Assembly (NCBI GenBank): GCA_022447685.1
Contig: JAKVAO010000004.1
Location: 1,978 to 65,977, forward strand
Source: Candidatus Caenarcanales bacterium
GTDB lineage: Bacteria > Cyanobacteriota > Vampirovibrionia > LMEP-6097
DNA: 64,000 nt
Direction: 5' to 3'
Below, one piece after another: positions 501 to 60,225 of this stretch (the first letter of the stretch is position 1; the number at the start of each line of letters is the position of its first letter). A program made the translations under genes and the position numbers. Under the pieces are notes generated by a model, which was not told the origin of the DNA, did no database searches, and saw only the letters and a program-made list of their open reading frames with translations.

Positions 501-2030
501 ATGCAGAAATTAATAAATTTATTTAGCAAGTCTAAAGAACTTGACATCAAAACCGAAGTTTTATCGGGCTTAACTGTTGCTATCGCCTTGATTCCTGAAG
601 CTGTGGCTTTTGCCTTCATTGCTGGCTTATCACCTCTAACTGGACTTTATGCAGCCTTCGTTATGGGTTTTGTTACTTCTATCTTCGGTGGACGCCCAGG
701 TATGATTTCTGGCGCAACAGGAGCTGTAGCAGTAGTATTAGTTGCACTCGCTAAAAGCCATGGAGTTGAATATATCTTCGCAACTGTAGTACTAGCTGGA
801 ATTTTACAGATGCTTGCAGGAATATTTAAACTTGGTAAATTCATGCGCTTAGTGCCACACCCAGTAATTTTCGGATTCGTAAATGGGCTTGCCATCATTA
901 TTTTCATGTCGCAGTTAGATCAATTCAAAAACGAAACTGGTGACTGGCTTTCAGGTATATCTATGTACACTATGCTGATTTTAGTCGGAATAACTATGCT
1001 AATAATTTGGCTATTACCAAAATTAACTAAAATCATCCCTTCCTCTCTTGCAGCTATACTAGCGATATTTGGATTAGTGTCAGTCTTCGGTATTGAAACC
1101 AAAACGGTTGGTGACATAGCTTCTATTCAGGGAGGTTTCCCACCTTTTCATCTTCCATTAGTACCATTTAACTTAGAAACAGTATCATTGATTTTCCCTT
1201 ACGCCCTGATCATGGCTGGAGTTGGGCTCATAGAAAGTTTACTTACCTTAAATATCATTGATGAAATCACAGAAACTAGAGGACACGGTAATAGAGAAGC
1301 TTTCGCTCAAGGTCTTGCCAACTGTATCTCTGGTATTTTTTCAGGCATGGGTGGCTGTGCCATGATTGGACAAAGTTTAATCAATATCTCTTCAGGTGCA
1401 AGAGCAAGGCTATCTGGAATAATAGCTTCTGTGATGTTACTTGTCTTTATTATGTTTGGTGCAGGACTAGTGGAACAATTACCAATAGCAGCACTTACAG
1501 GTTTAATGATCATGGTTTCCATAGGAACTTTCGAGTGGGCAAGTCTTAAGACCATCAATAAAATGCCTAAATCAGATATAACGATTATGGTGCTAGTAAC
1601 TCTGGTAACAGCAGTATTACACAACTTAGCCTTAGCTGTGCTCACTGGAGTTATCATTGCCGCCTTAGTTTTCGCTTGGGATAACGCAAAAAGAATCAGA
1701 GCAAGAAAATATCTAGATGATAATGGAGTTAAACACTACGAAATCTACGGTCCATTATTCTTCGCATCTACAACGCTATTTGGTGAGAAGTTTGATGTAC
1801 TCAATGATCCTACAGAAGTAATTATAGATTTTGCAGAAAGTAGAATCGTTGATATGTCAGCTATCGAAGCCCTCAACAAAATCACTGAACGTTATAGAAA
1901 AGTAGGTAAGAACGTTCATCTAAAACACCTCAGTTCTGACTGCCTAATGCTACTTAAAAACGCTGAAAAAATCATTGATGTCAATGTTCTTGAGGATCCA
2001 ACCTATAAAGTTGTAGTCGATGAACTCTAA
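501..2030 (+). CDS. SulP-family anion (sulfate) permease with C-terminal STAS domain
   Basis: 509-aa polytopic membrane protein with a typical SulP N-terminus (LSGLTVAIALIPEAVAFAFIAG) and a C-terminal STAS-like domain (GPLFFAST...VIIDFAESRIVDMSAIEAL). Confidence 0.85.
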   Translation: MQKLINLFSKSKELDIKTEVLSGLTVAIALIPEAVAFAFIAGLSPLTGLYAAFVMGFVTSIFGGRPGMISGATGAVAVVLVALAKSHGVEYIFATVVLAGILQMLAGIFKLGKFMRLVPHPVIFGFVNGLAIIIFMSQLDQFKNETGDWLSGISMYTMLILVGITMLIIWLLPKLTKIIPSSLAAILAIFGLVSVFGIETKTVGDIASIQGGFPPFHLPLVPFNLETVSLIFPYALIMAGVGLIESLLTLNIIDEITETRGHGNREAFAQGLANCISGIFSGMGGCAMIGQSLINISSGARARLSGIIASVMLLVFIMFGAGLVEQLPIAALTGLMIMVSIGTFEWASLKTINKMPKSDITIMVLVTLVTAVLHNLALAVLTGVIIAALVFAWDNAKRIRARKYLDDNGVKHYEIYGPLFFASTTLFGEKFDVLNDPTEVIIDFAESRIVDMSAIEALNKITERYRKVGKNVHLKHLSSDCLMLLKNAEKIIDVNVLEDPTYKVVVDEL

Positions 2031-12942: not shown

Positions 12943-14199
12943 ATGGCAGAAAAAAAAGGAAATTTCTTCTTCACTTCAGAATCAGTAAGTGAAGGTCACC
13001 CAGATAAGATTTGTGATCAAATCTCAGACGCAGTCTTGGACGCGATTTTATCGAAAGACCAGACGGCGAGGGTTGCCTGTGAAACATTTTGTACTACTGG
13101 ACTTGTAGTTGTAGGTGGTGAAATCACAACTAATTGCTACGCTCCAGTAAATGAGATCGCAAGAGACAAAATTAGAGAAATTGGTTACTCAGGAAAAATG
13201 GGCGGCGGTTTCGACGCTGATAACTGTTCTGTAATGGTAACTTTAGACCAACAATCAGCTGATATCTGTGCAGGTGTTGATAAATCACTAGAAACTAGAG
13301 ACAGCGATGAAGAAGATACTGGTGCTGGTGACCAAGGAATTATGTTTGGCTTTGCTTGTAATGAAACTTCAGAGTACATGCCGCTTGCAATTAATCTTTC
13401 ACACGCGATAGTGAAACAATTAGCTGATGTCAGAAAAAATCACCCTGATATCAACTATCTAAGACCTGACTCTAAGTCTCAAGTAACTATAGAGTATAGA
13501 GACGGTGTAGCTGCAAGAATAGAAGCTATAGTAGTTTCCACACAGCACGATCCAGAAGTTAAGGGTGAAACAGAAAACTCTAAAATCCAAGAAATTATTG
13601 CACAGGATATTAGAAAACTAGTTATAGACAAAGTCCTAAAAGACGCACCAGTTAAAATTGATGATAAAACCAAACTCTACTTCAATCCATCAGGAAGATT
13701 CGTAATCGGTGGACCACAAGGTGACGCTGGTCTTACTGGTAGAAAAATTATAGTAGATACCTACGGTGGCTATGCCCGTCATGGTGGTGGTGCTTTCTCA
13801 GGAAAAGACCCAACCAAAGTAGATAGATCCGCTGCTTATGCAGCACGCCATGCAGCGAAAAATATAGTAGCTGCTGGTTTAGCTGAACAATGTGAAATTC
13901 AACTTTCTTATGCTATTGGTGTAGCCAAGCCTACAAGCATTTACGTAAACACGTTCACAACTAGTGAACATTCTGACGAGAAACTTGTTCAAATTATCGA
14001 ACAAGTTTTCGATTTCAGACCTAAAAAGATCATTGAGAACTTCGATTTACTGTGGATGCCAGCTAAAAGAAATGGTAGGTTCTATCAAGAAACAGCTAAA
14101 TATGGTCACTTCGGTAGAGATGATTTAGATTTGCCTTGGGAAAGACTTGATAAAGTTGATGAAATTAAGAAAGTTCTTGAAAGTGCTTGTGTGGCTTAA
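12943..14199 (+). CDS. metK: S-adenosylmethionine synthetase
   Basis: [39 protein letters not shown] and [23 protein letters not shown] are MetK signature blocks. Confidence 0.95.
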
Positions 14200-15505: not shown

Positions 15506-15611
15506 CTATGTTGCACCAAACCTAAATCGACGAATACTTTATTTTCCATAAGATTGCTAAGCGTTTCTAAGCAATTATTAACAAATCGCAAAAAATTTGC
15601 AATTTCATAGG

Positions 15612-15617
15612 TATAAT
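15612..15617 (+). promoter_or_regulatory. -10 box AGGTATAAT, 6 nt upstream of ATG 15624
   Basis: Same GGTATAAT-N6-ATG arrangement as at 7209 and 62278. Confidence 0.4.
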
Positions 15618-15623
15618 ACAAAT

Positions 15624-16834: not shown

Positions 16835-17530
16835 CTAAGCTTCCGCTTTCTTAGACTTTATATCCTTCAGCTCCGCTTCCAAAGACTCAATCTTCTCCTG
16901 CATAGCCTGCAAAGTAGCACCAACAAAGTCCGGTGTCTTATTATGCTCTAAATTATCAATATTATCTATGCATTCTTTGAGTTCACCATTCATTTTCACA
17001 ATTCGTCCTGGGATTCCTACCACTGTTGAATAAGATGGAATATCCTTTAGAACTACTGAATTAGCACCAACTTGAACATAATCCCCAATATCTATATTTC
17101 CCAAAACCTTGGCTCCAGCACCAACGACAATATTCGAAGCTAAAGTCGGATGACGTTTTTCTTTTTTCGTAGAAACTCCACCTAAGGTCACTCCCTGATA
17201 GAGTGTTACATTATCACCAATGATAGTAGTTTCACCAATGACCACCCCTGTGCCATGATCTATAAAAAAATCTTTCCCTATCTGTGCCGCTGGGTGAATC
17301 TCAATACCAGTAATAATCTTAATTACATGAGCTGAGACTCTTACTATAAATTTGGTAAGTGGTTTGAGAAAAGCTAAAAAACCATAATCTTTAGTCCACA
17401 AAACATGAAAAATTCTATGCGCCAAAATCGCATGAAAACCTGGGTAACAAAATAAAATTTCAAAAATTGAGTTACAGGCAGGATCTTTCCTGTAGATATT
17501 TTTTATCTCCTCCTGAAAAGTCCTGAACAT
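16835..17530 (-). CDS. cysE: serine O-acetyltransferase
   Basis: C-terminal left-handed beta-helix hexapeptide repeats (GIEIHPAAQIGKDFFIDHGTGVVIGETTIIGDNVTLYQGVTLGG) and an N-terminal SAT helical domain. Confidence 0.85.
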   Translation of the reverse strand: MFRTFQEEIKNIYRKDPACNSIFEILFCYPGFHAILAHRIFHVLWTKDYGFLAFLKPLTKFIVRVSAHVIKIITGIEIHPAAQIGKDFFIDHGTGVVIGETTIIGDNVTLYQGVTLGGVSTKKEKRHPTLASNIVVGAGAKVLGNIDIGDYVQVGANSVVLKDIPSYSTVVGIPGRIVKMNGELKECIDNIDNLEHNKTPDFVGATLQAMQEKIESLEAELKDIKSKKAEA

Positions 17531-30225: not shown

Positions 30226-33200
30226 TTAGTTAACCTCTTTGTATCTAAGTTTCACAACTGGGTTTGAAATACTGTCATCCAAAACTTCTATTTCCAAAAG
30301 ATTATCTGATCCAGCAATATAAGTACTGTTATCAACTTTAATGAAATAACTTGGGAAACTTGGGGTAAAAAAGCCAGTTAACCTTAAGAAATATCTATGA
30401 CCTTGATGTAAATTAGTTGCTGTAAAAGTAGTATTGGAAGTCATAGTCTTAGTGAAATAACTATGTTCAGCACTTAAATCAATTACATTGCCAACTAAAA
30501 CACCCTTATCAGTAGTAAGAGAAGAAATAGTACCTGGTGCTAAGTCAGCAGCAGTAATACTACCATCTTGAATATCATCACCAGTTAAAGATTCATCTAG
30601 AACTTTATCTGTGGTAACAGCATCAGGAGCTAACTTAGTATTAATTACACTGCCATCTGCCAAATCTACTGTATCAATAGTTCCATCTAAAATATCAACT
30701 GAAGTAATTGAGTTATCAGCAATCTCAGTTGTAGTAACAGAAGCAGGTCCAACAGTAATTGCACCTAAAGTACTTGGGTGAAGATCCTGAGGTAGAATAG
30801 TTCCATCAAGTATCTTAGTTGTAGTTACTGCATTTGGTCCTATTTTCTGATTAGTTACCGCCGAGATACCAAGATCAGCACTTTGAATCGAAGCATCTAA
30901 AATATGGAAAGAGTTTACAGCAGAGCCTAAAATTTTGTCAGATGTCACCGATGAATTAGCGATTTTTATTGATGTAACCGATGCTGAAGCTAGTTTGGTA
31001 TCAGTTATAGAAAAATCTGCTATCTTTGATGTAGTAACCGAGTCATTAATTAACTTAGGCGTTGATATAGAATTATTAGCAATCTTAGCTGCTGTTACAG
31101 CATTATTTGCTAATTTTGCTGTTGTTATTGAACCATCAGCAACAGTAAGAGAAGTTAATACAACTGGATCTAGATCTGCTACTTGGATAGTGCCGTCTAA
31201 TATCTTACTACTTGTTACTGCATCTACAGCAAGCTTAGGGGTCGTTACACTACCATCAGCTAAATCAACTGTCACAATAGTACCGTTTTGGATATTGGAA
31301 GATAAAATTGTATTGTTTGCTATTTGAACATTAGTAATAGAGTTATTGGTAATATTTGATGCTGTTATCGTACCTGAAGCTAAATCAGCACCTGTTATTG
31401 TTCCATCCAAGATCTTGTCAGTTGTGACAACATCTGCAGCAAGCTTAGGATTAGTTACGCTACCATCAGCAAGCATAGCTGTAGTTACTGAACCTGCTCC
31501 AGGTACCACAGAACTTAGGACACTTGGATCTAAGTCTGCTACTTGGATAGTTCCATCTAGAATCTTGTTACTTGTTACTGCGTCTGTAGCGAGTTTAGAG
31601 TTGGTTATACTACCATCAGCTAAGTCTACAGTCTGGATTGTGCCATCCTGAATATTTGTAGATAGGATAGTATCGTTGTCTATCTGAATATTGGTAATAG
31701 AATTATTTGTAATGTTTGATGCAGTTATCGTTCCTGGGGCTAAGTCTGCACCAATAATTGTTCCATCTAGAATCTTTCCAGTGGTTACTGCATCTGAAGC
31801 AAGCTTAGGATTAGTTACACTACCATCTGCTAAGTCTACTGTTTGAACACCACCATCTTGGATCTTAATACTAGTTACTGAATTATCAGCTAGAGAACCA
31901 GTACTAATAGTTCCTGGAGCTAGGTCATCGATTGTGATCGAACCGTCTAAAATATCATCACCAGTTAAACTTTCATCTACTACTTTTGTAGTGTCTACCG
32001 CATCACCTGCTAGTTTCACTAATGTTACTGCTGCATCTGCTAGATCAGCTTCCATTACTTCACCATCTAGAATCTTTCCAGTGGTTACTGCATCTGAAGC
32101 TAATTTAAGATTAGTTACACTACCATCAGCCAAGTCTACAGTTGCAATAGTACCGTCTACTATCTTGATACTTGTTACTGAATTGTCTGCAAGTATTGTA
32201 TTAGTTACTGAACCTGCTCCAGGTACCACAGAACTTAGGACACTTGGATCTAAGTCTGCTACTTGGATAGTTCCATCTAGAATCTTGTTACTTGTTACTG
32301 CGTCTGTAGCGAGTTTAGAGTTGGTCATACTACCATCAGCTAAGTCTACAGTCTGGATTGTGCCATCCTGGATATTAGTAGACAAGATTGTATCGTTGTC
32401 TATCTGAATATTAGTAATAGAATTATTTGTAATGTTTGATGCAGTTATCGTCCCTGGGGCTAAATCTGCGCCTGTGATAGTACCATCTAAGATTTTATCT
32501 GTGGTAACTGCATCTGGAGCTAGTTTCACATTAGTCACACTACCATCTGCAAGAGAACCTGTACTAATAGTTCCTGGAGCTAAATCATCAACAGTAATTG
32601 AGCCATCTTGAATATCATCACCAGTTAAGCTTTCATCAACTACCTTTGTAGTATCTACAGAATCTACTGCTAACTTAACTAATGTCACAGCATCGTCTGC
32701 TAAATCATCTGTGATAATTGTTTCATCTAAAATCTTGTCTGTTGTTACTGCATCTGAAGCTAATTTAGGATTAGTTACGCTACCATCTGCTAAGTCTACC
32801 GTTTCAATAGTACCGTCTATTATCTTGATACTTGTTACTGAATTATCTGCAAGTATTGTATTAGTTACTGAACCTGCTCCAGGTACTACTGAAGTGAGTA
32901 CACTTGGATCTAAATCAGCAACTTGAATAGTTCCATCTAAAATCTTATTACCTGTTACAGCGTCATCAGCTAATTTAGGATTAGTTACAGCTAGGTTTCT
33001 AATTTTATTAGTTCTAACTGCATTGTTTCTAATCTTACTAGTTCTAACACTTGCATTGGCAAGATCAGCAGTAGCTATAGTTCCATCTAAAATTTTATCT
33101 GTTGTTACTGCATCTGCTGCAAGTTTAGGATTAGTTACACTACCGTCTGCAAGAGAACCTGTACTAATAGTTCCTGGAGCTAAATCATCAACAGTAATTG

Positions 33201-42667: not shown

Positions 42668-43675
42668 TTGCTTAAGTGCTTAATTAAATGCTATATTATG
42701 TATATGGCTAATTTATTAATAGATAAAGCTACAGAATCAGAGCAATATTTAGAAAATATTGATGAAAATGGTGTTCTGCTCATGGGTTGGAGGCTCAAGA
42801 AAGTAACTGATAATCTATTTAAACAAGTACAGGATCTTTATGACAAGCGTAAAAGGAATTTTAAAGCTGTATGGTTTACACCACTCATCACTATATATAA
42901 AAATCCAGATATAGAATTAAAAACACTAGCCGAGAAAAGAAAAGTTACAGCGTCAGCAATTACACAAATAGTAAAAGAACTAGAGAAAAATAATTTAGTT
43001 AAAACAAAAAAATCTAAAGAAGATCAAAGATCAAAAACAATTAAGATTACAAAAAAAGGAATAGAGTTACTCACATCAATAATCCCAGACCTTAATCTAA
43101 TTGAAGAGACAATTAATGAACTTTTATCACATGACTTTCATAGTACACTCGCTAAACTCGAAAATTTCAGTCAAAAACTATCCGAAAGCTCTTTTGAAGA
43201 AAGATATATAGAAAAAATTAAAATAATTAAGTACCAAGATAAATATAAAAAAGACTTCAAAGAACTTAACGAATCATGGTTTAATCCAATGTTTTCACAA
43301 ACAGATTATGATAGAAAACAATTTAGAAATCCACAGAAATCAATTATAGAGAAAGGTGGAGAAATATTTTTATTAGTTTCAGACGATGAGTTAATAGGAA
43401 ATATTTGTCTAATACATCATGATAATGACAATATTGAAATTTCTAAAATGTGTGTCAGAAAAGATTTCCAAGGTTTAGGTTTATCTAAATTATTAATGAA
43501 CCAAGCTATAGAATATGCACGTGAGAAAAAATATAATAGGATAACTCTTTATACAAACTCTCAGTTATCAAGTGCTATAGAGCTTTATAGAAAATATAAT
43601 TTTATTCAAGAAACAGTCGATTCCAAACACTCATATGGTGACAGAGCTGATATGCAGTTTAAGTTATATCTGTAA
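42668..43675 (+). CDS. bifunctional MarR-type HTH regulator / GNAT N-acetyltransferase
   Basis: wHTH block LAEKRKVTASAITQIVKELEKNNLVKTKKSKEDQRSKTIKITKKG in the N-half. GNAT acetyl-CoA pocket (...ISKMCVRKDFQGLGLSKLLMNQAIEYAR...) in the C-half. Confidence 0.7.
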   Translation: MLKCLIKCYIMYMANLLIDKATESEQYLENIDENGVLLMGWRLKKVTDNLFKQVQDLYDKRKRNFKAVWFTPLITIYKNPDIELKTLAEKRKVTASAITQIVKELEKNNLVKTKKSKEDQRSKTIKITKKGIELLTSIIPDLNLIEETINELLSHDFHSTLAKLENFSQKLSESSFEERYIEKIKIIKYQDKYKKDFKELNESWFNPMFSQTDYDRKQFRNPQKSIIEKGGEIFLLVSDDELIGNICLIHHDNDNIEISKMCVRKDFQGLGLSKLLMNQAIEYAREKKYNRITLYTNSQLSSAIELYRKYNFIQETVDSKHSYGDRADMQFKLYL

Positions 43676-43676
43676 A

Positions 43677-45116
43677 TTAATCATAAATACTAACAAAGTT
43701 ATATTTATAAAGCTGAGACTGAACACTGCCACTTCTCATATAGTCTATAAATTTTGCGACATTAGTTGTGAGCTTACCTAAACTAACTAAATATAAATAA
43801 CGAGACAATGGATACTGTCCTTTTCTAACTTTCTCAGTATCTATAGTAATTTTCTTAACACCATTTTCTTCAGAAATTATCACAGGAGCTATCCCTTTCT
43901 CTTCGAAGATTGTAGAAATTTTGAGTATTTTAAGATCTCTACCTTTCACATCTCCTAAACTTGCAAAGGAAATCGCATTAGGTTCAGATTCAACAAAATC
44001 CATAACTTGATTAACATCATAAATTTGAGTTACATCACTTGCAAACTTATCACCATAAAGAACTCTTTCTCTAAAGAAGCTCACAGTTCCATGGTGGAAT
44101 GTTTTAGAGTATTTCTTAACTTCTGATTGATTACCACCAAATTCACTCCAAGAAACAGCTTCTTTAGAATATATTTTCTGAAGATCTTCTACCGATAAAA
44201 CACTAACAGGGTTTAGTTTGTTTACAACTATAACAACTACATCTAAAGCCATTTTGTGATCAACTAATTCTTTACCTGAAATCTTTATAGCTCTCTTTCT
44301 TTCAGCTATAGTAGGAATTCTAGAACAAGAAGCAAGCTCTATCTTACCTTCTATAAGATTACTGATAGCCATACTAGAGTCAGATTTCTCTAAACTAAGT
44401 TCAAGACCTGGATTATCGATATTGAAACCAGATTTATAATCATCAAAAATTCTAACCAAAGATGAAGAACCATTAATCCTAATTTCCTTAGATTTACTAG
44501 CTACTGAAAGAGAACTTAAATTTCTATCTGACCTATATTCATTCATCAAAGATGTCAAATTAGTAGCATGATTATTAAAGAAACGGTCATAAATTAAATA
44601 ACCAATCGCTGAAAGCATTATCAAAAACAATATAGGAGCCATGCAACCTATAGACTTAGATTCTGGAGCTGCTTGCTGAGCCGCCGCTTGAGCTTGGGGA
44701 TTAGCTCTTGGAGTTTTCTTAGCTATAACCTTTTTATAGTCTTTAAGTGGAATATTTTCAGAAATATATTCAATAGCTATATCAACAAGATTACTTGCAT
44801 CAGCTAAGCTGACACCAAGATCCATAGAAATAGTATTGAGATCAGACCTATAATAAAGAACTAATTCTGCTGCTCTCTTAACTCTAAGGTAATTATTATG
44901 CCTCGGGGCGATATATTTTCCATTATTATAAGAACTTATCTCAGCCATTGGCGACGACAAGTGTTTAATCAAATTATTAATAGCTAAAGCTAGAGACATT
45001 AACTCTGACTTTTGAGTATCTGAAATCTCAGTATCACTATATCTATCTATATGAGTAGAAAAATCAAGTATGGTTAATATGATATTTTTTCTAACTTCTA
45101 ATTCTGTAAGTGACAT
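43677..45116 (-). CDS. membrane protein with a cytoplasmic HTH-like N-domain, one TM helix and a periplasmic PstS-like phosphate-binding domain
   Basis: The C-terminal 280 aa resemble PstS/PBP2 (SCSRIPT..ER.RAIK, LDVVVIVVNKLNPVSVLSVEDLQKIYS...WSEFGG). A TM segment lies around IGCMAPILFLIMLSAIGYLIY. The N-terminal region around LRVKRAAELVLYY...ISMDLGVSLADASNLV is HTH-like. Confidence 0.55.
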   Translation of the reverse strand: MSLTELEVRKNIILTILDFSTHIDRYSDTEISDTQKSELMSLALAINNLIKHLSSPMAEISSYNNGKYIAPRHNNYLRVKRAAELVLYYRSDLNTISMDLGVSLADASNLVDIAIEYISENIPLKDYKKVIAKKTPRANPQAQAAAQQAAPESKSIGCMAPILFLIMLSAIGYLIYDRFFNNHATNLTSLMNEYRSDRNLSSLSVASKSKEIRINGSSSLVRIFDDYKSGFNIDNPGLELSLEKSDSSMAISNLIEGKIELASCSRIPTIAERKRAIKISGKELVDHKMALDVVVIVVNKLNPVSVLSVEDLQKIYSKEAVSWSEFGGNQSEVKKYSKTFHHGTVSFFRERVLYGDKFASDVTQIYDVNQVMDFVESEPNAISFASLGDVKGRDLKILKISTIFEEKGIAPVIISEENGVKKITIDTEKVRKGQYPLSRYLYLVSLGKLTTNVAKFIDYMRSGSVQSQLYKYNFVSIYD

Positions 45117-45339
45117 ATTAACTGTTTTCTATATTCTTAACTACTAAACCGTAAAGTATTTCGAGAGTATCTTCACTAACTGAGTTAGCAAGCATCCTAA
45201 TCATGACTTCAGATATTAGCTCTCTATTTTCACCGTCCATTTAAACTTTCATTTTACATTAACTGGTAAAAAGCTGCCATTTTATAAAGTTTAATGAGAA
45301 TATTTTCATTTATTTTGAGTTTCATTATATATTTTGAAT

Positions 45340-46467
45340 GTGAAACTAATAGTTGGCTTAGGAAATATAGGAAGTAAGTATGATAATACCAGGCATAATA
45401 TAGGCTTTGATTTTTTAGATTATTTAGCGAAAAAAGAAAATTTAAATTTCAGAGAAGAGAAAAAATTTAAAGCTTTCATCGCAAAAAAAGACGATATAAT
45501 TTATATCAAACCAACTACATATATGAATCTTTCAGGAGATTCTGTATTAAAATTAATGAGCTTCTTCAAAATCAAAAGAGAAGATATCTTAGTAGCTCAC
45601 GATGATGTCAGCATCAACTACCCTGAAACTAGGTTCTCATTCAATAGAGGAGCTGGTGGTCAACACGGTATAGAAGACATAATCAAAAAATCAGGTGGGA
45701 AAAGTTTTGGACGTATAAGAATAGGTGTGGGTCCTGACCCTGGCGGCGATAAAAGAGCTAACTATGTTCTTAGTAAGTTTAATAATGATGAACAGAATAA
45801 AAAAGAACTGATCTACAAAGACTCTGAATTTATATTGGATCAATGGCTTAAACTACCAATTGAAAAAATTCAAAACCCAAAAAACAAAAAACAAGCTAAT
45901 GCTAAGCTAAAAAAGATGAATTATAAATTGAAAAAAGGTTTAACTCTCTGGTTTACTGGCTTATCCGGCGCTGGAAAATCGACAGTAGCAAATGCTTTAA
46001 TTGGAAAACTATCTAAGAACAATAAAAAGTTTCCTTTAGAGCTTTTAGACGGTGATGAAATAAGAGAAAACCTCAATCAAGGACTAGGTTTCAGTAAAGA
46101 AGATAGATTTACTAATATAAAAAGAATATCTTTTCTTGCTGGTAAAATTTCTAAACATAATGTTCTAGTAGTAGTGCCAGTTATCGCTCCATACCAGGAA
46201 GCAAGAGATATGGCAAGATCTATGAGTGAAGATTTCATAGAAGTATTTGTGAATGCAAGTATAGAAAAAGTAGAGGAAAGAGATGTTAAAGGACTCTATG
46301 CTAAAGCAAGATCTGGTGAAATTCAAAATTTCACAGGCATATCCGATCCGTATGAGGCCCCCTCAAATCCTGATATAGAGCTTAACACAGACAAAGAGTC
46401 AATTTCAAAATCTGTTGATAAAGTTTTAAACAAATTATTGGAAAAGGGATATGTAGAAAAAATTTAA
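45340..46467 (+). CDS. peptidyl-tRNA hydrolase fused to adenylyl-sulfate (APS) kinase domain
   Basis: Residues ~1 to 175 are a complete Pth (MKLIVGLGNIGSKYDNTRHNIGF, YMNLSGDSV, HDD, RIRIGVG). After a K-rich linker, residues ~200 to 375 are a complete CysC-type kinase (LWFTGLSGAGKSTVANAL, LDGDEIRENLNQGLGFSKEDR, FIEVFVNASIEKVEERDVKGLYAKARSGEIQNFTGISDPYE). GTG 45340 restores the canonical Pth N-terminus. The ORF track starts at TTG 45334. Confidence 0.75.
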   Translation: MKLIVGLGNIGSKYDNTRHNIGFDFLDYLAKKENLNFREEKKFKAFIAKKDDIIYIKPTTYMNLSGDSVLKLMSFFKIKREDILVAHDDVSINYPETRFSFNRGAGGQHGIEDIIKKSGGKSFGRIRIGVGPDPGGDKRANYVLSKFNNDEQNKKELIYKDSEFILDQWLKLPIEKIQNPKNKKQANAKLKKMNYKLKKGLTLWFTGLSGAGKSTVANALIGKLSKNNKKFPLELLDGDEIRENLNQGLGFSKEDRFTNIKRISFLAGKISKHNVLVVVPVIAPYQEARDMARSMSEDFIEVFVNASIEKVEERDVKGLYAKARSGEIQNFTGISDPYEAPSNPDIELNTDKESISKSVDKVLNKLLEKGYVEKI

Positions 46468-46704: not shown

Positions 46705-47850
46705 ATGAAACTAAAAGTTTCTCAAAAATTATTAGACAAAGCTATCAAGTCAGTTAATAAAGCTGTACCAGCGAAAGGCATACAGCCAATACTTAACAAT
46801 ATTTATTTAAAAACACTTGGTGAAAAGTTATTATTAAATGCAACTGATTTAGATTTTTGGATTGAAGCTACGATTCCAGCTAATAATTTGAATGAAGGTT
46901 CAGTAGCAATTTCTGCAAAGAAAATAGAAGAAATTTCAAGTAAATTTTCTGATGAAGAATTAGATTTATTTATGGAAGATGAAAAGAAAATTCTTGAAAT
47001 TGGTTCTGAGAAAATAAAATTTGATCTAATTGGTTTACCTGGAGATGATTTCCCAGCTTTTGAAAAACCAGATTTTATAGATCAAGATTTTATAAGTATC
47101 AATAGACAAGAGTTTTTAGATCTCTTAAACGTAGTTCAAATATCTGCTTCTAGATTTGATTTGAATAATATACTTGGTGGAATTTATATTGGAATTAAAC
47201 AAGAAGAAGATAATTCATATTTTCTAGAATTTGCTAGCTCTGATGGTGGCAGGCTTTCAGCTTATAAGATGAAGCTTGATAATATTAATGAAACTCATAA
47301 GTTTGCTAACAAAGCTGTCATAGTTCCTATAAAAATTATTCTAGATGTTCAGAAGATCTTAGATACTAGTGTTGATGATAATGTAGAAATTGGTTTTCTT
47401 TCATCTAGAGTGGTATTCAAAACTGAAGATAGATATGTTGTTTCTAGAATACTTGAAGGTGAGTATCCTAACTACATGGAATTAGTTCCAAAGACTCATG
47501 ACAAAGAAGCTATTATCAATAGAAAAGATCTTCAGCAAGCATTAGACAGAGTTTCAGTTATGGCTAATGAAGTTACCAATATGGTTAAGTTTTCATTCAA
47601 TGATAATCAAATGACCCTTGAGTGTTCTAATTTGGATTTTGGTAATGCTGTTGAATCTTTAGAGGTTGTTTCTTACAATGGTTCAGAGTTTGAAATTAAT
47701 TTTAATGTTAGATTTATAATGGATTACTTAAAGGTTATTGATTCGGATAATATAGTAATTCACATGAATGCTAACGAAAGTCCTGCTCTAGTAAAACCAG
47801 AGCAAGGTCAAGAACACATCTATGTGATAATGCCTTTAAAATCTAATTAA
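46705..47850 (+). CDS. dnaN: DNA polymerase III beta sliding clamp
   Basis: Three-domain clamp of 381 aa with N-terminus MKLKVSQKLLDKAIKSVNKAVPAKGIQPILNNIYLKT and C-terminal MPLKSN. No dnaA lies upstream in this window. Confidence 0.9.
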   Translation: MKLKVSQKLLDKAIKSVNKAVPAKGIQPILNNIYLKTLGEKLLLNATDLDFWIEATIPANNLNEGSVAISAKKIEEISSKFSDEELDLFMEDEKKILEIGSEKIKFDLIGLPGDDFPAFEKPDFIDQDFISINRQEFLDLLNVVQISASRFDLNNILGGIYIGIKQEEDNSYFLEFASSDGGRLSAYKMKLDNINETHKFANKAVIVPIKIILDVQKILDTSVDDNVEIGFLSSRVVFKTEDRYVVSRILEGEYPNYMELVPKTHDKEAIINRKDLQQALDRVSVMANEVTNMVKFSFNDNQMTLECSNLDFGNAVESLEVVSYNGSEFEINFNVRFIMDYLKVIDSDNIVIHMNANESPALVKPEQGQEHIYVIMPLKSN

Positions 47851-47896: not shown

Positions 47897-50455
47897 TTAT
47901 AAAAAAGCTAGCTGAGATTTTTTTGCATCTATATCAGATCTAAGTGAATTAGCTTTATCCTCATCATAGTTAGGTGTTGACTCAAGAGTTAATAGTTCAC
48001 TTTCTAGACTTGCTATTTCATCTTCTATAAATATTCTTTGTTCTTCATCATTTGTAATATCTCTATTAACAAAGAATGCATCAACTGTATCTCTTGTAAC
48101 TGATTCACCATCAACATCCATAGTAAAGCTACTGGTTAAACTTATATCGTTACCATTTTTATCAAACTTCTCACCAACGTTTCCAGAGTAGTTAGTTGAA
48201 ATAGATGTGATGCCTACTTCTTCAAGACCTTTCATCTCACCTTTGCCAACTTTACCGTCTCCATCCATATCAGCCCAAACTTTAAGCTCACTGAATGCTT
48301 CATCTTCAGATGTAATTTGACCATCTTGGTTGGTATCTAATTTAGCTAATTCTTCATAACCATTATCAGCATCGTTTTGATCACCAAATAATTCTGAACC
48401 GTCATCAATTTGACCGTTACCATTTCTATCTAATGCTAAGAATGCATCATCAAACCCTTGACTACTTTGTGTCCATGCTGTTCTATCTAATTGTTGATCT
48501 GCATTTAAGTCGAAGTTAACTCCATTTTCAACAGATGTTAATTCGATTCCATCACCATCTATATCTAAGATCACTGGAGATGACCATCTGAAAGAAGAAT
48601 CAACTACTTCATAATCCTGACCTTCTACTTCAATTGTTTGACCAGCTACAGTATCATCTGCTACATCACCCCATGCATTAGTATTACCAGACAATTCATT
48701 TCTATCTATTGTTCCAAGAACCTCTCCAGAGTGAATATCTACTATTACTGGTGTCGTAGCAGACATTTCTTTATCTTCGTCTGACATCATAGCCAAGACA
48801 TTTTGATAAAGCTCGTCATTTGTTGAATCATAGTTTATTTGATTATAGTTATAACCATTATGATTATCACCGAATTGTCCACCAGATACACCCATTATAT
48901 CTCCAAGTGAATGTGCATCCCAACCACCAACTACTATTACTTCTCTAGGTGCAATCATATCCTGTAATTCACTACTAGTAACTGTTTGATCGCCGAAAGC
49001 AAATGTTTCTACATTAGTTACTGTATTAACATCACCATTATCATTATCAGTAAATGTAAAAGTATTATTACCTTCATCAGTTATTGAATAACTACTAAAA
49101 CCTTTATTTAGAGCTAAAGTATCATTTCCCTCGCCACCATCTATAGTATTGTCTCCATAACCGTCAGTTATTATGTCATCTCCAGCTCCACCTTCGATAT
49201 TATCGTTTCCTTCACTACCGTCAATGACATCGTCACCGAATCCACCATCTATGGTGTCGTTTCCAGCTCCACCGTCTATAGTATCGTCTCCAGCTCCACC
49301 ATCTATAATATCGTCACCAGCACCACCATCAATTGTGTCATCACCATCTCCACCATCTATAATATCGTCACCGGCTCCGCCGTCTATAATGTCATCACCA
49401 TCTCCTCCATTAATAGTGTCGTTACCTTCTCCACCATTAAGATTGTCATTGCCAGCTCCGCCATTAAGAATGTCATTACCTTCGCCACCAATCAATGTAT
49501 CGTTACCACCATTACCATTGATAGTGTCATCACCATCTAAACCATTTATTTCATCATCGCCATCGGTTCCCTCTAACACATCATCACTATCTGTAGCAAA
49601 ACCTAATGCGATAGCTTCATGTAATTCAGCTATTGTGAATAATTCTTCGCCATCATCAGTAAGGAATAAAAAGTTTTCTACACTCATTACAGTGGTAGTA
49701 TTTTCTGGATTATCAGCATCTGTAATTCTGATATTATTTCCGCTATCATAGTCAATTATAAAATCATCAGTACTTCCCTCAAAAACAACAGTATCTTCTC
49801 CTAAACCACCCATAACAGTGTTTTGTCCAGTACCAGCTACTATAAAGTCGTTTCCGTTTCCAGCATCTATTAGATCATTACCCGGACCACCATGTATATA
49901 GTCATCACCATTTCCAGCTATAATATGGTCATCACCGGCTTCCCCATAAATAACATCATTTCCATTTCCACCATAGACTCTGTCATCACCTGATCCAGCT
50001 AGTATTGAATCATTTCCACTACCGCCACTTATTAGGTCATCTCCTGCACCTGCGTCAATAACATCGTTACCACTAGTTGAACTTACATTATCATCACCAT
50101 CGCCACTATCTATGATTGCGTCACTAACTACTGCAGAAATTATCCTATCATTACCATCAAATGAAGCAATATTACTATTATCATAGTCATAGATTGTATC
50201 GCCGTCATTACTTCCTGATCTTATATCGTTGCCATTTCTATTAAAAGTATTATTGCCTGACAATTCGTTTCTCATTGAGTCCAAACGTGAACTTATATTA
50301 TCGACATCAATAGGAGCTAGGTCAGGATTATCCGCCATTGCTCTATCCAGTGTAGGGTCATATGATTGCCCATTAACCTTAACGCCTTTTCGGGTTAAAT
50401 TGTTCTCTTCAATGTTTATCAAACTATCATTTAAAAAATTATTATTTATAACCAT
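47897..50455 (-). CDS. RTX-family calcium-binding repeat protein (852 aa) with additional EF-hand/dockerin-like Ca loops
   Basis: More than 25 nonapeptide GGxGxDxUx repeats (for example GGAGDDIIDGGDGDDTIDGGAGDD). Later D-x-D/N-x-D-G-x-I loops (DRNGNGQIDDGSE, DTNQDGQITSEDE, DMDGDGKVGKGE). No signal peptide, consistent with a T1SS-type substrate. Confidence 0.8.
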   Translation of the reverse strand: MVINNNFLNDSLINIEENNLTRKGVKVNGQSYDPTLDRAMADNPDLAPIDVDNISSRLDSMRNELSGNNTFNRNGNDIRSGSNDGDTIYDYDNSNIASFDGNDRIISAVVSDAIIDSGDGDDNVSSTSGNDVIDAGAGDDLISGGSGNDSILAGSGDDRVYGGNGNDVIYGEAGDDHIIAGNGDDYIHGGPGNDLIDAGNGNDFIVAGTGQNTVMGGLGEDTVVFEGSTDDFIIDYDSGNNIRITDADNPENTTTVMSVENFLFLTDDGEELFTIAELHEAIALGFATDSDDVLEGTDGDDEINGLDGDDTINGNGGNDTLIGGEGNDILNGGAGNDNLNGGEGNDTINGGDGDDIIDGGAGDDIIDGGDGDDTIDGGAGDDIIDGGAGDDTIDGGAGNDTIDGGFGDDVIDGSEGNDNIEGGAGDDIITDGYGDNTIDGGEGNDTLALNKGFSSYSITDEGNNTFTFTDNDNGDVNTVTNVETFAFGDQTVTSSELQDMIAPREVIVVGGWDAHSLGDIMGVSGGQFGDNHNGYNYNQINYDSTNDELYQNVLAMMSDEDKEMSATTPVIVDIHSGEVLGTIDRNELSGNTNAWGDVADDTVAGQTIEVEGQDYEVVDSSFRWSSPVILDIDGDGIELTSVENGVNFDLNADQQLDRTAWTQSSQGFDDAFLALDRNGNGQIDDGSELFGDQNDADNGYEELAKLDTNQDGQITSEDEAFSELKVWADMDGDGKVGKGEMKGLEEVGITSISTNYSGNVGEKFDKNGNDISLTSSFTMDVDGESVTRDTVDAFFVNRDITNDEEQRIFIEDEIASLESELLTLESTPNYDEDKANSLRSDIDAKKSQLAFL

Positions 50456-58245: not shown

Positions 58246-58769
58246 AAATCTTCCTCCTCTTCATCTGTCTCAATAATAAATTGGCTTTCAATGATTTGTA
58301 TGATTTCTAAACTTTTGGATAAATCTTCGAGTTTATCTTCACCTGAAAAGGATTTTTTAGCGAATTTTGCTAAGTCTGCTCTTTCTAAACATTTAATTAG
58401 ATTATGTGAGGAACTGGTTTCTAGATTTTTGATTTTAGTAAGTACAGTTTCTATTTCCTTAGTTGTTTTATCTAGGATAGAAATTGAAAAACGGAAATCC
58501 AAATAAGATTTCAATAATTCTGAATACTTTTCATAGAAGACTTTTGAATCTGAGACTTGTTCTAATTCTTTTAGCTTTTCAATTATTTTTTCATTTAATG
58601 GTCTAATATCTGATTCGTCTTTTTTCTTGTTTTTGAGATAAATGTAAACGATTACTGCAGCTATGACCAAGATAAGGGGGACTATTAGCCAAATAGGAAT
58701 TTGCATAGAAACAAATCCGTGAACGTCTTTTAAACTATTTATAAGTTTTTCTTTGGTGAGCTCGTCCAT
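58242..58769 (-). CDS. Bat-operon-associated single-TM protein (DUF4381-like)
   Basis: 175 aa with one TM helix (IPIWLIVPLILVIAAVIVYIYL). A 4-nt ATGA overlap with batA indicates translational coupling. Confidence 0.45.
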   Translation of the reverse strand: MDELTKEKLINSLKDVHGFVSMQIPIWLIVPLILVIAAVIVYIYLKNKKKDESDIRPLNEKIIEKLKELEQVSDSKVFYEKYSELLKSYLDFRFSISILDKTTKEIETVLTKIKNLETSSSHNLIKCLERADLAKFAKKSFSGEDKLEDLSKSLEIIQIIESQFIIETDEEEEDL

Positions 58770-58833
58770 TCAATATAAAATTATATCAATAGAAATTTTA
58801 GCCACAGTTTATGATGATAAAATACTGGTATTC

Positions 58834-60225
58834 ATGCTGCTGAGAACGATTTTCTTATTATTAGTATTACTTTTCCCTTTAGCTAATAATTGTTTAGTAC
58901 TTCAAGCATCTGCAAAAAAAAACATTCTTTTTATAGCGATTGATGACCTAAACGATATGGTTCCTATCCTAGATCAGGGAGCTATTGTTAAAACTCCTAA
59001 TATAGATAAACTTGCAAGTAAATCTACAGTTTTTACTAATGCTTTTGCTTCTTCGACTTTATGTAATCCATCTAGATTTTCTTTACTTACAGGTCTGAAA
59101 CCAAGTACAACAGGGGTTTATCTCAATATAAGTAATTCCTTGTTATTAGAAGATGAGTATTTAAATATCATGACTTATCTTAGGCAGCATGATTATCAAA
59201 CTATTGGTGTTGGGAAAATTTTCCATGGTACTCAAAATCAAGAATCTGCCTGGGATATATACCATGGTTATCACAAGAACCGTTTTGCTACTAGAAAATC
59301 GCATAATAAATGGCCTGTTAATTGGGGTGTCGTCAATGATAAGTTTTTAGACCAAAGAGATGAACTAGTCACAGACAAGGCTCTAGAATATATTTCTAAG
59401 AAATTTGAACAGCCGACTTTTTTAGCTGTAGGTTTTCACAATCCACATCTGCCTTGGTTTTACACTAAAGAAATTTATGATAAGCATGCTATTCCTTTGT
59501 CTAAGATTCATAAGCCAGAGGAACCAGAGTATATACTTTCTGACTTACCGAAGTCTGCAAGAACACTTGCCATTCAATACAATATTTTTGATCAATCAAA
59601 TTATCATGAGAAGGTAATCGATGCTCATGAATGGAAACGTGCTATTCAAGCATATTTGGTTGGTGTTGCTTATATGGATGAGAAATTAGGTGAGCTTCTT
59701 GAAGCTTTCTATGCAAGTCCTAACTTTGAAGATACTATAGTTGTTTTGTGGAGTGATCATGGTTATCATCTCGGTGAAAAGAAACATTGGAACAAACATG
59801 GTTTATGGGAGAAGACTACTCATATTCTTCTTATGTTCTCATTTCCACAGAGACAAAAAATAGTTAATAACTCAGTTGTAAGTCTATTAGATGTTTTTCC
59901 AACTATTATTGATTTTCTAGGATTGCCTAAACTTGATCAATTAGAAGGTAATTCTCTTATGCCTATTATGTTTGCAAGTAATGCCGATTGGGATAACCAT
60001 GCTTTAACTACTATGGATTATAAGAATCATTCTGTTCGTGGCATTCGCTGGCGTTATACTCGTTATAAAGATGGGTCTGAAGAGCTTTATGATAAGAAAT
60101 TTGATCAGAGAGAGTTTTATAATTTGGCTGAGAATAAGTCTTTGAAGCAGGTTAAGAAGAGACTTAAGAAGTTTTTACCAGAGGATAATCATAAGCCGAT
60201 TCCGGAAGAGGTGTTTGTTCATTAG
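58834..60225 (+). CDS. sulfatase (formylglycine-dependent arylsulfatase family), secreted
   Basis: The C-x-P-S-R sulfatase signature lies in STLCNPSRFSLLTG. A signal peptide (MLLRTIFLLLVLLFPLANNCLVLQASA) begins at the Met at 58834. The ORF track starts at 58753. Confidence 0.8.
   Translation: MLLRTIFLLLVLLFPLANNCLVLQASAKKNILFIAIDDLNDMVPILDQGAIVKTPNIDKLASKSTVFTNAFASSTLCNPSRFSLLTGLKPSTTGVYLNISNSLLLEDEYLNIMTYLRQHDYQTIGVGKIFHGTQNQESAWDIYHGYHKNRFATRKSHNKWPVNWGVVNDKFLDQRDELVTDKALEYISKKFEQPTFLAVGFHNPHLPWFYTKEIYDKHAIPLSKIHKPEEPEYILSDLPKSARTLAIQYNIFDQSNYHEKVIDAHEWKRAIQAYLVGVAYMDEKLGELLEAFYASPNFEDTIVVLWSDHGYHLGEKKHWNKHGLWEKTTHILLMFSFPQRQKIVNNSVVSLLDVFPTIIDFLGLPKLDQLEGNSLMPIMFASNADWDNHALTTMDYKNHSVRGIRWRYTRYKDGSEELYDKKFDQREFYNLAENKSLKQVKKRLKKFLPEDNHKPIPEEVFVH

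What the first reader, a model, noticed from the sequence alone, without database searches (positions are those of the whole stretch)
45340..46467. In-frame fusion of peptidyl-tRNA hydrolase to a complete APS-kinase (CysC-type) domain
Both halves are full length and carry their catalytic signatures. The Pth half has the N-terminal H of the catalytic site (TRHNIGF) and the HDD and GVG blocks. The kinase half has the P-loop GLSGAGKST, the LDGD(E/N)(I/V)R substrate loop and the FTGI(S/D)(D/S)PYE lid.

The two halves are joined by a K-rich 28-aa linker with no stop codon or frameshift. Pth is essential and normally monocistronic. APS kinase belongs to sulfate activation and is usually cysN/cysD-linked. 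Sulfur genes in this window (sulP, cysE, sulfatase) are not adjacent.

Either this is a genuine bifunctional protein, for example coupling translation quality control to PAPS supply or a kinase acting on a nucleotide or tRNA substrate, or it results from a one-base assembly error that removed a stop.
Basis: partly seen in the sequence, partly recalled or inferred. Interest (0 to 1): 0.55.

Follow-up and report, generated by a model that had tools for sequence, protein, structure and literature searches.

The report
Conserved Pth–APS kinase fusion enzyme
A non-photosynthetic relative of cyanobacteria makes a tRNA-recycling enzyme and a sulfate-activating kinase as one real, evolutionarily conserved protein; I found no description of this pairing, but each half looks like an ordinary working enzyme.

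Summary
Window 45340..46467 (+) is one uninterrupted 375-codon gene. It encodes a full-length peptidyl-tRNA hydrolase (Pth1), a short lysine-rich linker and a full-length APS kinase (CysC).

It is not an assembly error. The same fusion occurs in at least seven sequence clusters (57-99% identity). They come from independent ENA, JGI, Logan and NCBI assemblies and sit in the same neighbourhood: PstS-like gene, fusion, dnaN.

Junction length differences are all multiples of three. dN/dS is about 0.1 in both halves. Trees of the two halves agree, which points to a single origin.

The organism is a Candidatus Caenarcaniphilales bacterium. NCBI names the protein only "adenylyl-sulfate kinase".

In a scan of 1.84 billion representative proteins, only this one cluster spans both domains.

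Catalytic and substrate-binding residues are intact in both halves. The two deviations (His at the E. coli Asn114 position; Ala for the Ser of ISPY) are lineage-typical and also occur in stand-alone enzymes.

The AlphaFold2 model gives two confident domains joined by a disordered tether.

Best reading: two canonical enzymes fused after pth moved in front of an ancestral cysC-dnaN pair. Functional coupling is neither shown nor excluded. This is a new domain architecture of moderate interest.

The parts
45340..46467 (+). Complete pth-cysC fusion gene (375 codons plus TAA). The GTG start is conserved in all six orthologous loci examined.
   Evidence: product identical to P0121 / MCH2226430.1
45340..45876 (+). 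Peptidyl-tRNA hydrolase (Pth1) domain, aa 1-179, including the C-terminal helix 155-171 and the conserved KIQNP.
   Evidence: Pfam PF01195 E 8e-52; TIGR00447 above cut-off; PDB Pth chains E down to 1e-36; Foldseek TM 0.8-0.94
45394..45396 (+). His19 codon, the equivalent of the E. coli Pth catalytic base His20.
   Evidence: invariant in the seven fusion proteins
45601..45603 (+). Asp88 codon, the equivalent of E. coli Asp93, which polarises the catalytic His.
45664..45666 (+). His109 codon in GGQHG, at the position of the E. coli oxyanion-hole Asn114. The variant is typical of this lineage.
45877..45930 (+). Lys-rich linker, aa 180-197. Residues 185-191 are predicted disordered. AKLKK(K)M-YKLKKG is conserved among the fusions.
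45909..45915 (+). In-frame A_AAA_AAG heptamer at the junction. It is only a weak lead for -1 frameshifting.
45916..45918 (+). Met193 codon. It aligns with the start Met of the closest stand-alone APS kinase (P0125, MTAYKLTKGLTLW). It is the ancestral cysC start and a possible internal start.
45931..46464 (+). APS kinase (CysC) domain, aa 198-375.
   Evidence: Pfam PF01583 E 1.5e-57; TIGR00455 above cut-off; PDB 5cb6 E 5e-58; Foldseek 5cb8 TM 0.97, rmsd 1.1 A
45958..45984 (+). P-loop GLSGAGKST, aa 207-215.
46045..46065 (+). LDGDEIR, aa 236-242. Asp237 is the Mg-water ligand, Asp239 the catalytic base, and Arg242 binds the phosphosulfate.
43677..45116 (-). Divergent upstream neighbour: a PstS-family periplasmic-binding-protein-like gene. 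It is conserved next to the fusion in all relatives.
   Evidence: synteny
46705..47850 (+). dnaN (DNA polymerase III beta clamp), the conserved downstream neighbour. No terminator-like site lies in between.
   Evidence: synteny

Best explanation
This is a genuine, vertically inherited gene fusion, fixed in one sub-clade of Candidatus Caenarcaniphilales (class Vampirovibrionia, non-photosynthetic Cyanobacteriota).

It encodes one polypeptide with two independently folded, canonical enzymes. The N-terminal Pth1 domain hydrolyses the ester bond of dropped-off peptidyl-tRNA. It uses His19 as base, polarised by Asp88, with Asn63 and His/Asn109 stabilising the oxyanion. The C-terminal APS kinase domain transfers the gamma-phosphate of ATP to the 3'-OH of adenosine 5'-phosphosulfate to make PAPS. 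It uses the P-loop, Asp239 as base and Lys317.

The two are joined by a short, basic, partly disordered tether. The tether derives from the Lys-rich C-terminal tail that stand-alone Pth proteins of this lineage already carry, followed by the original start Met of cysC.

The fusion arose once, when pth came to lie directly in front of an ancestral cysC-dnaN pair.

Shown: the fusion is real, is conserved, is under purifying selection in both halves, has intact active-site residues and has a single origin. Inferred: both activities, and the absence of any special coupling beyond co-expression and 1:1 stoichiometry. Because APS kinases are dimers, the fusion probably also makes Pth dimeric.
For: Reality of the fusion:
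- Seven fusion clusters (P0001-P0007) at 59-99% identity come from ENA, Logan and JGI. The eighth listed hit, P0008 (57%), is a likely chimera.
- NCBI holds deposits MCH2226430.1, NQY78752.1, MFM7458225.1 and NBV99106.1. One cluster alone has 98 member sequences.
- The ORF is intact, with a GTG start, in six loci from different samples. One is a long-read contig in which many other genes are broken.
- The neighbourhood PstS-like(-) | fusion(+) | dnaN(+) is kept throughout.
- Junction indels are 3, 6 or 9 bases, and substitutions fall at third codon positions.

Selection:
- Where synonymous sites are not saturated, dN/dS is 0.07-0.27 for Pth, 0.03-0.40 for the linker and 0.06-0.17 for the kinase.

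Single origin:
- The fusion halves are monophyletic, with the same internal topology, in both neighbour-joining trees.
- The sister stand-alone cysC P0010 lies directly upstream of dnaN.
- The sister P0125 lies 2 kb from a stand-alone pth, P0020. P0020 already has the IQNP motif plus a Lys-rich tail.

Active sites:
- Pth residues N9, H19, N63, D88, R125 and R127 are invariant in the seven fusions.
- Kinase residues are invariant apart from F/Y251: the P-loop, L236-D-G-D239, R242, R256, N259, R314, K317 and F331. They map onto the residues listed for M. tuberculosis CysC.

Structure:
- AlphaFold2 mean pLDDT is 94. Only residues 185-191 fall below 50. pTM is 0.58, as expected for two rigid domains without a fixed mutual orientation.
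- Foldseek gives TM 0.97 to APS kinase 5cb8 and 0.8-0.94 to Pth structures.
- Many other proteins carry something fused to the N-terminus of an APS kinase domain: Sat, CysN, CysQ, PAPS reductase and patatin. That attachment point is therefore well tolerated.
Against: - No activity has been measured.
- No ATP sulfurylase (sat or cysDN), APS/PAPS reductase or sulfotransferase was found in the 64-kb window or in about 10 kb beyond either end. The source of APS and the user of PAPS are therefore unknown.
- The E. coli Asn114 position is His in the window protein, and the Lys105 position is Ser.
- The Ser of the kinase 'ISPY' motif is Ala.
- The linker segment AKLKK(K)M-YKLKKG is more conserved than a passive tether needs to be. 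This hints at an extra constraint.
- I could not check whether the genome has a second pth or cysC.
Confidence: 0.72

Rival explanations
1. Assembly or sequencing artefact: a lost stop codon or an indel in the A-rich junction wrongly joins two adjacent genes.
For: The junction is full of A homopolymers, which are error-prone.
Against: The same in-frame junction appears in at least eight contigs from different samples, assemblers and sequence variants down to 61% identity. All length differences are multiples of three. The linker itself is under purifying selection.
Confidence: 0.01
2. The fusion reflects real functional coupling. One version: the dimeric kinase domain acts as an ATP, APS or PAPS sensor or scaffold that tunes Pth activity, so that sulfur or energy status is linked to tRNA recycling. 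Another version: the kinase domain has acquired a second substrate, such as the 3'-OH of the terminal adenosine that Pth has just freed.
For: - The architecture has persisted through long divergence, with synonymous sites saturated.
- The junction motif is invariant.
- pth and cysC are already within 2.5 kb of each other in the nearest unfused relative.
- APS kinase chemistry is phosphorylation of an adenosine 3'-OH.
- The tether is short, so the active sites cannot be far apart.
Against: - All residues that hold the sulfate and phosphate of APS are conserved (R242, R256, main chain at I282/A283).
- The domain is 54-58% identical to a crystallised APS kinase, with TM 0.97.
- Nothing indicates an inter-domain interface (pTM 0.58, disordered linker).
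- No known pathway links the two enzymes, and no paper mentions the pairing.
- The other close relative has cysC without pth nearby.
Confidence: 0.1
3. One gene gives several products. Besides the fusion, free APS kinase is made from the retained ancestral start (Met193). In addition or instead, free Pth is made by -1 ribosomal frameshifting on the A_AAA_AAG heptamer at the junction. The -1 frame stops three codons later.
For: - Met193 is invariant and aligns with the start of the nearest stand-alone kinase.
- An in-frame dnaX-type heptamer sits at 45909-45915. Only three such heptamers exist in 19,295 codons of the window.
- A TAA in the -1 frame follows in all six loci.
Against: - There is no Shine-Dalgarno-like sequence better than AAGAAG before the internal ATG.
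- The perfect heptamer is present in only 3 of 6 orthologous loci.
- There is no downstream RNA structure (z = +0.34).
- The -1 stop is forced by the conserved Tyr-Lys codons TAT AAA.
- A Lys-rich linker in a 33% GC genome readily yields such runs.
Confidence: 0.1
4. The Pth half is a catalytically retired or repurposed module, as in plant CRS2. Real Pth activity would then come from another gene, and the protein would in effect be an APS kinase with an RNA-binding appendage.
For: - The E. coli Asn114 position is His and the Lys105 position is Ser in the window protein.
- CRS2 structures are among the PDB matches, at E 1e-24.
- Databases name the protein only as an APS kinase.
Against: - His19, Asp88, Asn9, Asn63 and Arg127 are invariant, and dN/dS is about 0.1.
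These are mostly the nearest stand-alone Pth proteins, plus a few of the fusions themselves, and include ones named from cyanobacteria.
- The deeper fusion branch (P0005-P0007) has the canonical Asn.
- No second pth lies within about 84 kb.
Confidence: 0.05

Closest known systems
Bacterial peptidyl-tRNA hydrolase Pth1 (E. coli Pth, PDB 2pth/3vjr; Pfam PF01195, TIGR00447)
   Same: Full-length domain with the same fold (TM 0.8-0.94). The catalytic His/Asp pair, Asn10 and Asn68 equivalents, the Arg133 equivalent and the C-terminal helix are all present.
   Different: It carries a 180-aa enzyme on its C-terminus. It has GGQHG instead of GGHNG, and Ser at the Lys105 position. Both are typical of the cyanobacterial/melainabacterial branch of the family. 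None of the 120 closest Pth homologues listed has a second Pfam domain.
Stand-alone APS kinase CysC (PDB 5cb6/5cb8; I recall this as the Synechocystis sp. PCC 6803 enzyme, but the tool did not give the organism)
   Same: About 54-58% identity over the whole domain, TM 0.97, rmsd 1.1 A. The P-loop, LDGD, both Arg, both aromatic clamps and the lid Lys are identical.
   Different: It is fused behind Pth. It has Ala instead of Ser in I(S/A)PY. That variant occurs in 29 of 235 homologues, including long multi-domain proteins of Sat-APS-kinase size (562-578 aa). The contact there is through the main chain.
Known APS kinase fusions: CysN-CysC (M. tuberculosis, PDB 4bzp), Sat-APS kinase (Aquifex, PDB 2gks), metazoan PAPS synthase, CysQ-APS kinase
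   Same: The kinase is the C-terminal module, attached through its N-terminus by a short linker.
   Different: In all of those the partner belongs to the same sulfur pathway. Here the partner is a translation-rescue enzyme with no known link to sulfur metabolism.
Plant CRS2 (Pth-derived group II intron splicing factor, PDB 1ryb/1rym)
   Same: A cyanobacterial-type Pth fold used in a new protein context.
   Different: From my own knowledge, CRS2 has lost Pth function and works with CAF partners. The domain here keeps all core catalytic residues and is under strong constraint.
E. coli dnaX tau/gamma (-1 frameshift on A AAA AAG)
   Same: The same heptamer, in the same frame, at a domain boundary, followed by a nearby -1 frame stop.
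   Different: There is no stimulatory stem-loop or upstream SD-like element, and the heptamer is not conserved among orthologues.

Membership tests
Pth1 peptidyl-tRNA hydrolase | Sequence matches the family model above the curated cut-off over its full length | tested here: met
   TIGR00447 171.6 bits against a cut-off of 100, profile positions 1-169 of 172. Pfam PF01195 positions 1-180 of 183.
Pth1 peptidyl-tRNA hydrolase | Catalytic His20 and Asp93 (E. coli numbering) | tested here: met
   His19 and Asp88, invariant in the seven fusions.
Pth1 peptidyl-tRNA hydrolase | Substrate and oxyanion residues Asn10, Asn68 and Asn114 | tested here: inconclusive
   Asn9 and Asn63 are present. The Asn114 position is His109 in the window protein and Asn in P0005-P0007. 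The His form is the majority among motif-bearing sequences, which are mostly the nearest stand-alone Pth proteins.
Pth1 peptidyl-tRNA hydrolase | Basic tRNA-acceptor clamp (Lys103, Lys105, Arg133) | tested here: inconclusive
   Arg/Lys98 and Arg127 are present. The Lys105 position is Ser100, with Arg103 nearby.
Pth1 peptidyl-tRNA hydrolase | Pth fold | tested here: met
   AlphaFold2 pLDDT above 90. Foldseek TM 0.8-0.94 to many Pth structures.
Pth1 peptidyl-tRNA hydrolase | Hydrolysis of peptidyl-tRNA; essential, sole copy in the genome | not testable with these tools
   No whole genome and no biochemistry were available. No second pth lies within about 84 kb.
APS kinase (CysC, EC 2.7.1.25) | Sequence matches the family model above the curated cut-off | tested here: met
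   TIGR00455 211.4 bits against a cut-off of 138.7. NF003013 187.4 against 163. NF002059 241.7 against 244, just below.
APS kinase (CysC, EC 2.7.1.25) | P-loop, LDGD motif (Mg ligand and catalytic base) and lid Lys | tested here: met
   GLSGAGKST 207-215, LDGD 236-239 and K317, mapped onto M. tuberculosis CysC residues 452-458, 477-480 and Lys562.
APS kinase (CysC, EC 2.7.1.25) | APS-specific contacts: two Arg on the phosphosulfate, two aromatic residues sandwiching the adenine | tested here: met
   R242, R256, F251 (Tyr in one orthologue) and F331.
APS kinase (CysC, EC 2.7.1.25) | Ser of the ISPY motif (E. coli Ser109, once proposed as the phospho-acceptor; my own knowledge) | tested here: not met
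   It is Ala283. The same Ala occurs in 29 of 235 homologues and in PDB 23vk. The contact is by main-chain N in the M. tuberculosis CysC structure. I do not regard this residue as defining.
APS kinase (CysC, EC 2.7.1.25) | Pathway context: ATP sulfurylase upstream, and a PAPS reductase or sulfotransferase downstream, in the same genome | tested here: inconclusive
   None was found in the window or about 10 kb beyond either end. sulP, cysE and a sulfatase are present.
Programmed -1 frameshift site (dnaX type) | In-frame X_XXY_YYZ heptamer, conserved among orthologues, with stimulatory elements | tested here: not met
   The heptamer is present in the window but in only 3 of 6 orthologues. No downstream structure.

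The most novel reading that the evidence does not exclude
The fusion is kept because the two activities are mechanistically coupled. Examples: the dimeric kinase domain gates or recruits Pth according to ATP, APS or PAPS levels; or it phosphorylates an adenosine 3'-OH other than that of APS, such as the tRNA 3' end or a related nucleotide. Either would link sulfur or energy status to tRNA recycling in these bacteria.
Probability: 0.08. Interest if true: 0.75.

Novelty: new variant of a known kind. Interest (0 to 1): 0.38.

Why it matters
Both enzymes are textbook proteins, but I found no description of their union in one polypeptide. In a scan of 1.84 billion representative proteins it appeared in a single cluster only.

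Long-conserved fusions of unrelated enzymes are classic hints of a functional link. If that holds here, it would suggest a connection between ribosome rescue or tRNA recycling and sulfate activation that nobody has looked for.

If there is no link, the case is still useful in two ways. It is a clean, datable example of a neutral or co-expression fusion in an uncultured sister lineage of the cyanobacteria. It is also an annotation warning: public records call the protein only "adenylyl-sulfate kinase", which hides what may be the genome's only copy of an essential gene.

Tried and rejected
1. GTDB species-representative scan with the window protein. The peptide patterns were specific to this one sequence. 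Only kinase halves of other phyla came back, so the result says nothing about whether the fusion is absent there.

2. JGI metagenome scan with the fusion alignment. The two apparently long matches (L121, L169) are ordinary pth-mfd pairs joined by tblastn.

3. The homologue search with the Pth half alone did not list the fusion proteins themselves, for reasons I could not see. I used it only for stand-alone relatives.

4. The candidates among the 150 listed representative hits that I checked, four with two matched stretches and six with extra length beyond the matched domain, turned out to be tandem kinases, CysN or Sat fusions, kinases with an unassigned N-terminal extension, or long-tailed Pth proteins. 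None was a second Pth-kinase fusion.

5. The intervening gene between cysC and pth in the nearest unfused relative is not homologous to the PstS-like neighbour here. A simple deletion therefore cannot explain the fusion.

6. Promoter and terminator scan, Rfam and tRNA scans found nothing relevant near the gene.

7. Literature searches found no paper on the fusion and none on sulfate activation in Caenarcaniphilales or Melainabacteria.

8. Extending the context beyond both window ends found no sulfate-activation genes.

9. Frameshifting at the junction heptamer was considered and ranked low.
Full report
**What is in the sequence.** Window 45334/45340..46467 (+) is a single open reading frame with no stop or frameshift. 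Starting at the GTG at 45340 it encodes 375 residues. These are identical to database protein P0121, deposited at NCBI as MCH2226430.1, [quoted passage not shown].

Pfam finds a full-length Pept_tRNA_hydro domain (E 8e-52) and then a full-length APS_kinase domain (E 1.5e-57). NCBIfam's equivalog models for pth (TIGR00447) and apsK (TIGR00455) both score well above their curated cut-offs. The only correction is that the linker is about 20-25 residues, not 28.

**Is it an artefact?** No. A search of 5.8 billion proteins found seven further clusters with both domains: P0002-P0007 at 59-78% identity, plus P0008 at 57%, which looks like a chimera. They come from ENA, Logan and JGI assemblies.

Cluster look-ups add further NCBI deposits (NQY78752.1, MFM7458225.1, NBV99106.1). 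One cluster has 98 member sequences on contigs up to 174 kb.

I retrieved DNA for eight fusion-bearing contigs from different samples and analysed five of them, plus the window, at the codon level. Each has an intact 375-384-codon gene starting with GTG. The same neighbours flank it: a divergent PstS-like binding-protein gene upstream and dnaN downstream. One of these contigs is a long-read assembly in which many other genes are fragmented, yet the fusion is whole.

In the DNA alignment of the junction, every length difference is a multiple of three. Substitutions sit at third codon positions.

Nei-Gojobori estimates, where synonymous sites are not saturated, give these dN/dS ranges:

| Region | dN/dS |
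|---|---|
| Pth half | 0.07-0.27 |
| Linker | 0.03-0.40 |
| Kinase half | 0.06-0.17 |

**How widespread and how old.** A full HMMER scan of 1.84 billion representative proteins (50% identity clusters) returned one representative spanning both halves, at 818 bits. The next hit is a single-domain kinase at 211 bits.

Any other fusion of these two families should have scored well above 211 bits. The hits I checked with two matched stretches or with extra length proved to be tandem kinases, CysN-, or Sat-kinase fusions, kinases with an unassigned N-terminal extension, or long-tailed Pth proteins. So the architecture is confined to one clade.

Neighbour-joining trees of the two halves, each with stand-alone relatives, place the fusions as one clade with the same internal branching. 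That means one fusion event followed by vertical descent.

The nearest stand-alone kinases show what came before:
- P0010 lies directly upstream of dnaN, with the PstS-like gene nearby.
- P0125 lies 2 kb upstream of a stand-alone pth, P0020, on the same strand. An unrelated gene lies between them.

P0020 already ends in "...IQNPSKPKPKKNK...", a Lys-rich tail. P0125 begins "MTAYKLTKGLTLW". The fusion reads "...IQNPKNKKQANAKLKK-M-NYKLKKGLTLW". The linker is therefore the shortened Pth tail butted onto the original start codon of cysC.

The closest other stand-alone Pth genes sit in unrelated contexts: nuoD-pth, or rpsD-pth.

**Are the two halves likely active?** For Pth, the E. coli work summarised in PMC3488237 defines the roles as follows:
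- His20 is the base and Asp93 is its partner.
- Asn68 and Asn114 form the oxyanion hole.
- Asn10 binds the peptide.
- Lys103, Lys105 and Arg133 bind the acceptor stem.

The fusion has His19, Asp88, Asn63, Asn9, Arg/Lys98 and Arg127, all invariant or conservatively kept in the seven orthologues.

Two positions differ. Asn114 is His109 (GGQHG) and Lys105 is Ser100. GGQHG is the commonest form among all retrieved sequences in which the motif could be read (75 of 114). Most of these are the nearest stand-alone Pth proteins, including ones named from Cyanobacteria and Melainabacteria. The deeper fusion branch has Asn there. This is a lineage trait, not decay.

For the kinase, the M. tuberculosis CysC structures (PMC4373884) list these features:
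- the P-loop;
- LDGD, with a Mg-water ligand and the catalytic base;
- two Arg on the phosphosulfate;
- two Phe around the adenine;
- a lid Lys and a lid Arg.

All are present: 207-215, 236-239, R242, R256, F251, F331, K317 and R314. The only departure is Ala283 for the Ser of "ISPY". In M. tuberculosis CysC that position contacts sulfate through its main-chain N. Ala occurs in 29 of 235 homologues, including long multi-domain proteins of Sat-kinase size, and in a solved structure.

The kinase half is 54-58% identical to the crystallised APS kinase 5cb6/5cb8.

An AlphaFold2 model built on 114 sequences has mean pLDDT 94, and only residues 185-191 fall below 50. Its pTM is 0.58, as expected for two rigid bodies on a flexible tether. 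Its halves superpose on APS kinase (TM 0.97) and on Pth structures (TM 0.8-0.94).

**Context.** I scanned 50 of the 51 ORFs I took as genes against Pfam. There is no ATP sulfurylase, CysD/CysN, APS/PAPS reductase or sulfotransferase. Nor is there any in the roughly 1.3 kb recoverable upstream of the left end and about 10 kb beyond the right end of the window.

A SulP permease (501..2030), a true cysE (16835..17530, minus strand; TIGR01172 above cut-off), metK (12943..14199) and a sulfatase (58753..60225) are present but scattered. The source of APS and the consumer of PAPS therefore remain unknown.

No terminator-like site separates the fusion from dnaN.

**Most likely mechanism.** Two canonical enzymes are made as one chain. 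Pth recycles tRNA from dropped-off peptidyl-tRNA, and the kinase converts APS to PAPS. The fusion guarantees co-expression at equal amounts. Because APS kinases are dimers, it probably also presents Pth as a dimer. The basic tether may add some affinity for tRNA.

I rate [quoted passage not shown] at about 0.7.

**Alternatives.**
- An artefact is excluded.
- True functional coupling, or a new kinase substrate such as an RNA 3'-terminal adenosine, is attractive because of the long persistence and the unusually conserved junction motif. Nothing positive supports it, and the APS-binding residues argue against a new substrate.
- Multiple products from one gene are possible. Met193 is the retained ancestral start. 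An in-frame A_AAA_AAG heptamer, one of only three in 19,295 codons of the window, lies right at the junction with a -1 frame stop three codons on. However, the heptamer is perfect in only three of six orthologues and no RNA structure follows it.
- A retired, CRS2-like Pth half is unlikely given the conservation.

**Novelty and interest.** Searches of the paper library found nothing on this pairing. Public records name the protein only as a kinase. It is a new domain architecture of two well-known families in an uncultured lineage. I class it as a new variant of a known kind and score its interest as moderate. The score would rise sharply only if biochemical coupling were shown.

Noticed in passing
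window 45909-45915: An in-frame dnaX-type slippery heptamer, A_AAA_AAG, lies exactly at the domain junction. Only three exist in 19,295 codons of the window. A -1 shift would stop three codons later and give free Pth. It is not conserved in half of the orthologues, and no downstream structure follows.
   Followed up: partly
window 45118-45240 (-): A conserved 40-codon ORF (MDGENRELISEVMIRMLANSVSEDTLEILYGLVVKNIENS) lies immediately upstream of, and nearly abutting, the PstS-like gene. A 39-40 aa gene is called at the same place in six related loci (L081-L083, L088-L090).
   Followed up: partly
window 47897-50455 (-): An 852-aa RTX calcium-binding repeat protein lies right after dnaN. Relatives L082, L088 and L089 have other genes at this position, so it looks like a lineage-specific insertion.
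   Followed up: no
window 7221-8393, 15597-16829, 17649-18863, 62291-63523 (all +): There are four paralogous AAA_14/DUF4143 ATPase genes in one 64-kb window, with a fifth just beyond the right end (L181). Their presence varies between otherwise near-identical contigs (L177 versus L178).
   Followed up: no
window 42668-43675 (+): A second fusion-type gene two genes upstream: a MarR-type HTH domain joined to a GNAT acetyltransferase domain (335 aa).
   Followed up: no
window 30226-35679 (-) and 24854-27910 (+): Two giant ORFs of 1817 aa and 1018 aa have no Pfam match at E <= 1e-5.
   Followed up: no
window 9990-11144 (-): An IS4-family DDE transposase (DDE_Tnp_1_assoc + DDE_Tnp_1). It carries one of the three in-frame A_AAA_AAG heptamers. 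The related contig L177 has different genes from about the position equivalent to window 7000 onward and shows none of this segment, transposase included.
   Followed up: no
protein P0008 (JGI contig of 3,061 bp): A 390-aa protein in which an aminotransferase fragment replaces the first ~90 residues of the Pth half and the rest of the fusion follows. It is probably a chimeric contig or a local rearrangement.
   Followed up: no
L084 7444-10645 (GCA_964438425.1): In the nearest unfused relative, stand-alone cysC and pth lie 2 kb apart on the same strand, with an unrelated 482-aa gene between them. The two genes were therefore neighbours before they fused.
   Followed up: partly
L177-L180, about 0.5-1.3 kb upstream of the window's sulP: A flagellar basal-body rod gene lies just beyond the left end of the window. 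This indicates a flagellated organism.
   Followed up: no
NCBI records NBV99106.1 and MFM7458225.1: Fusion proteins of the P0007 cluster are deposited under '[Proteobacteria bacterium]' and '[bacterium]'. This probably reflects mis-binning or missing classification of Caenarcaniphilales contigs.
   Followed up: no
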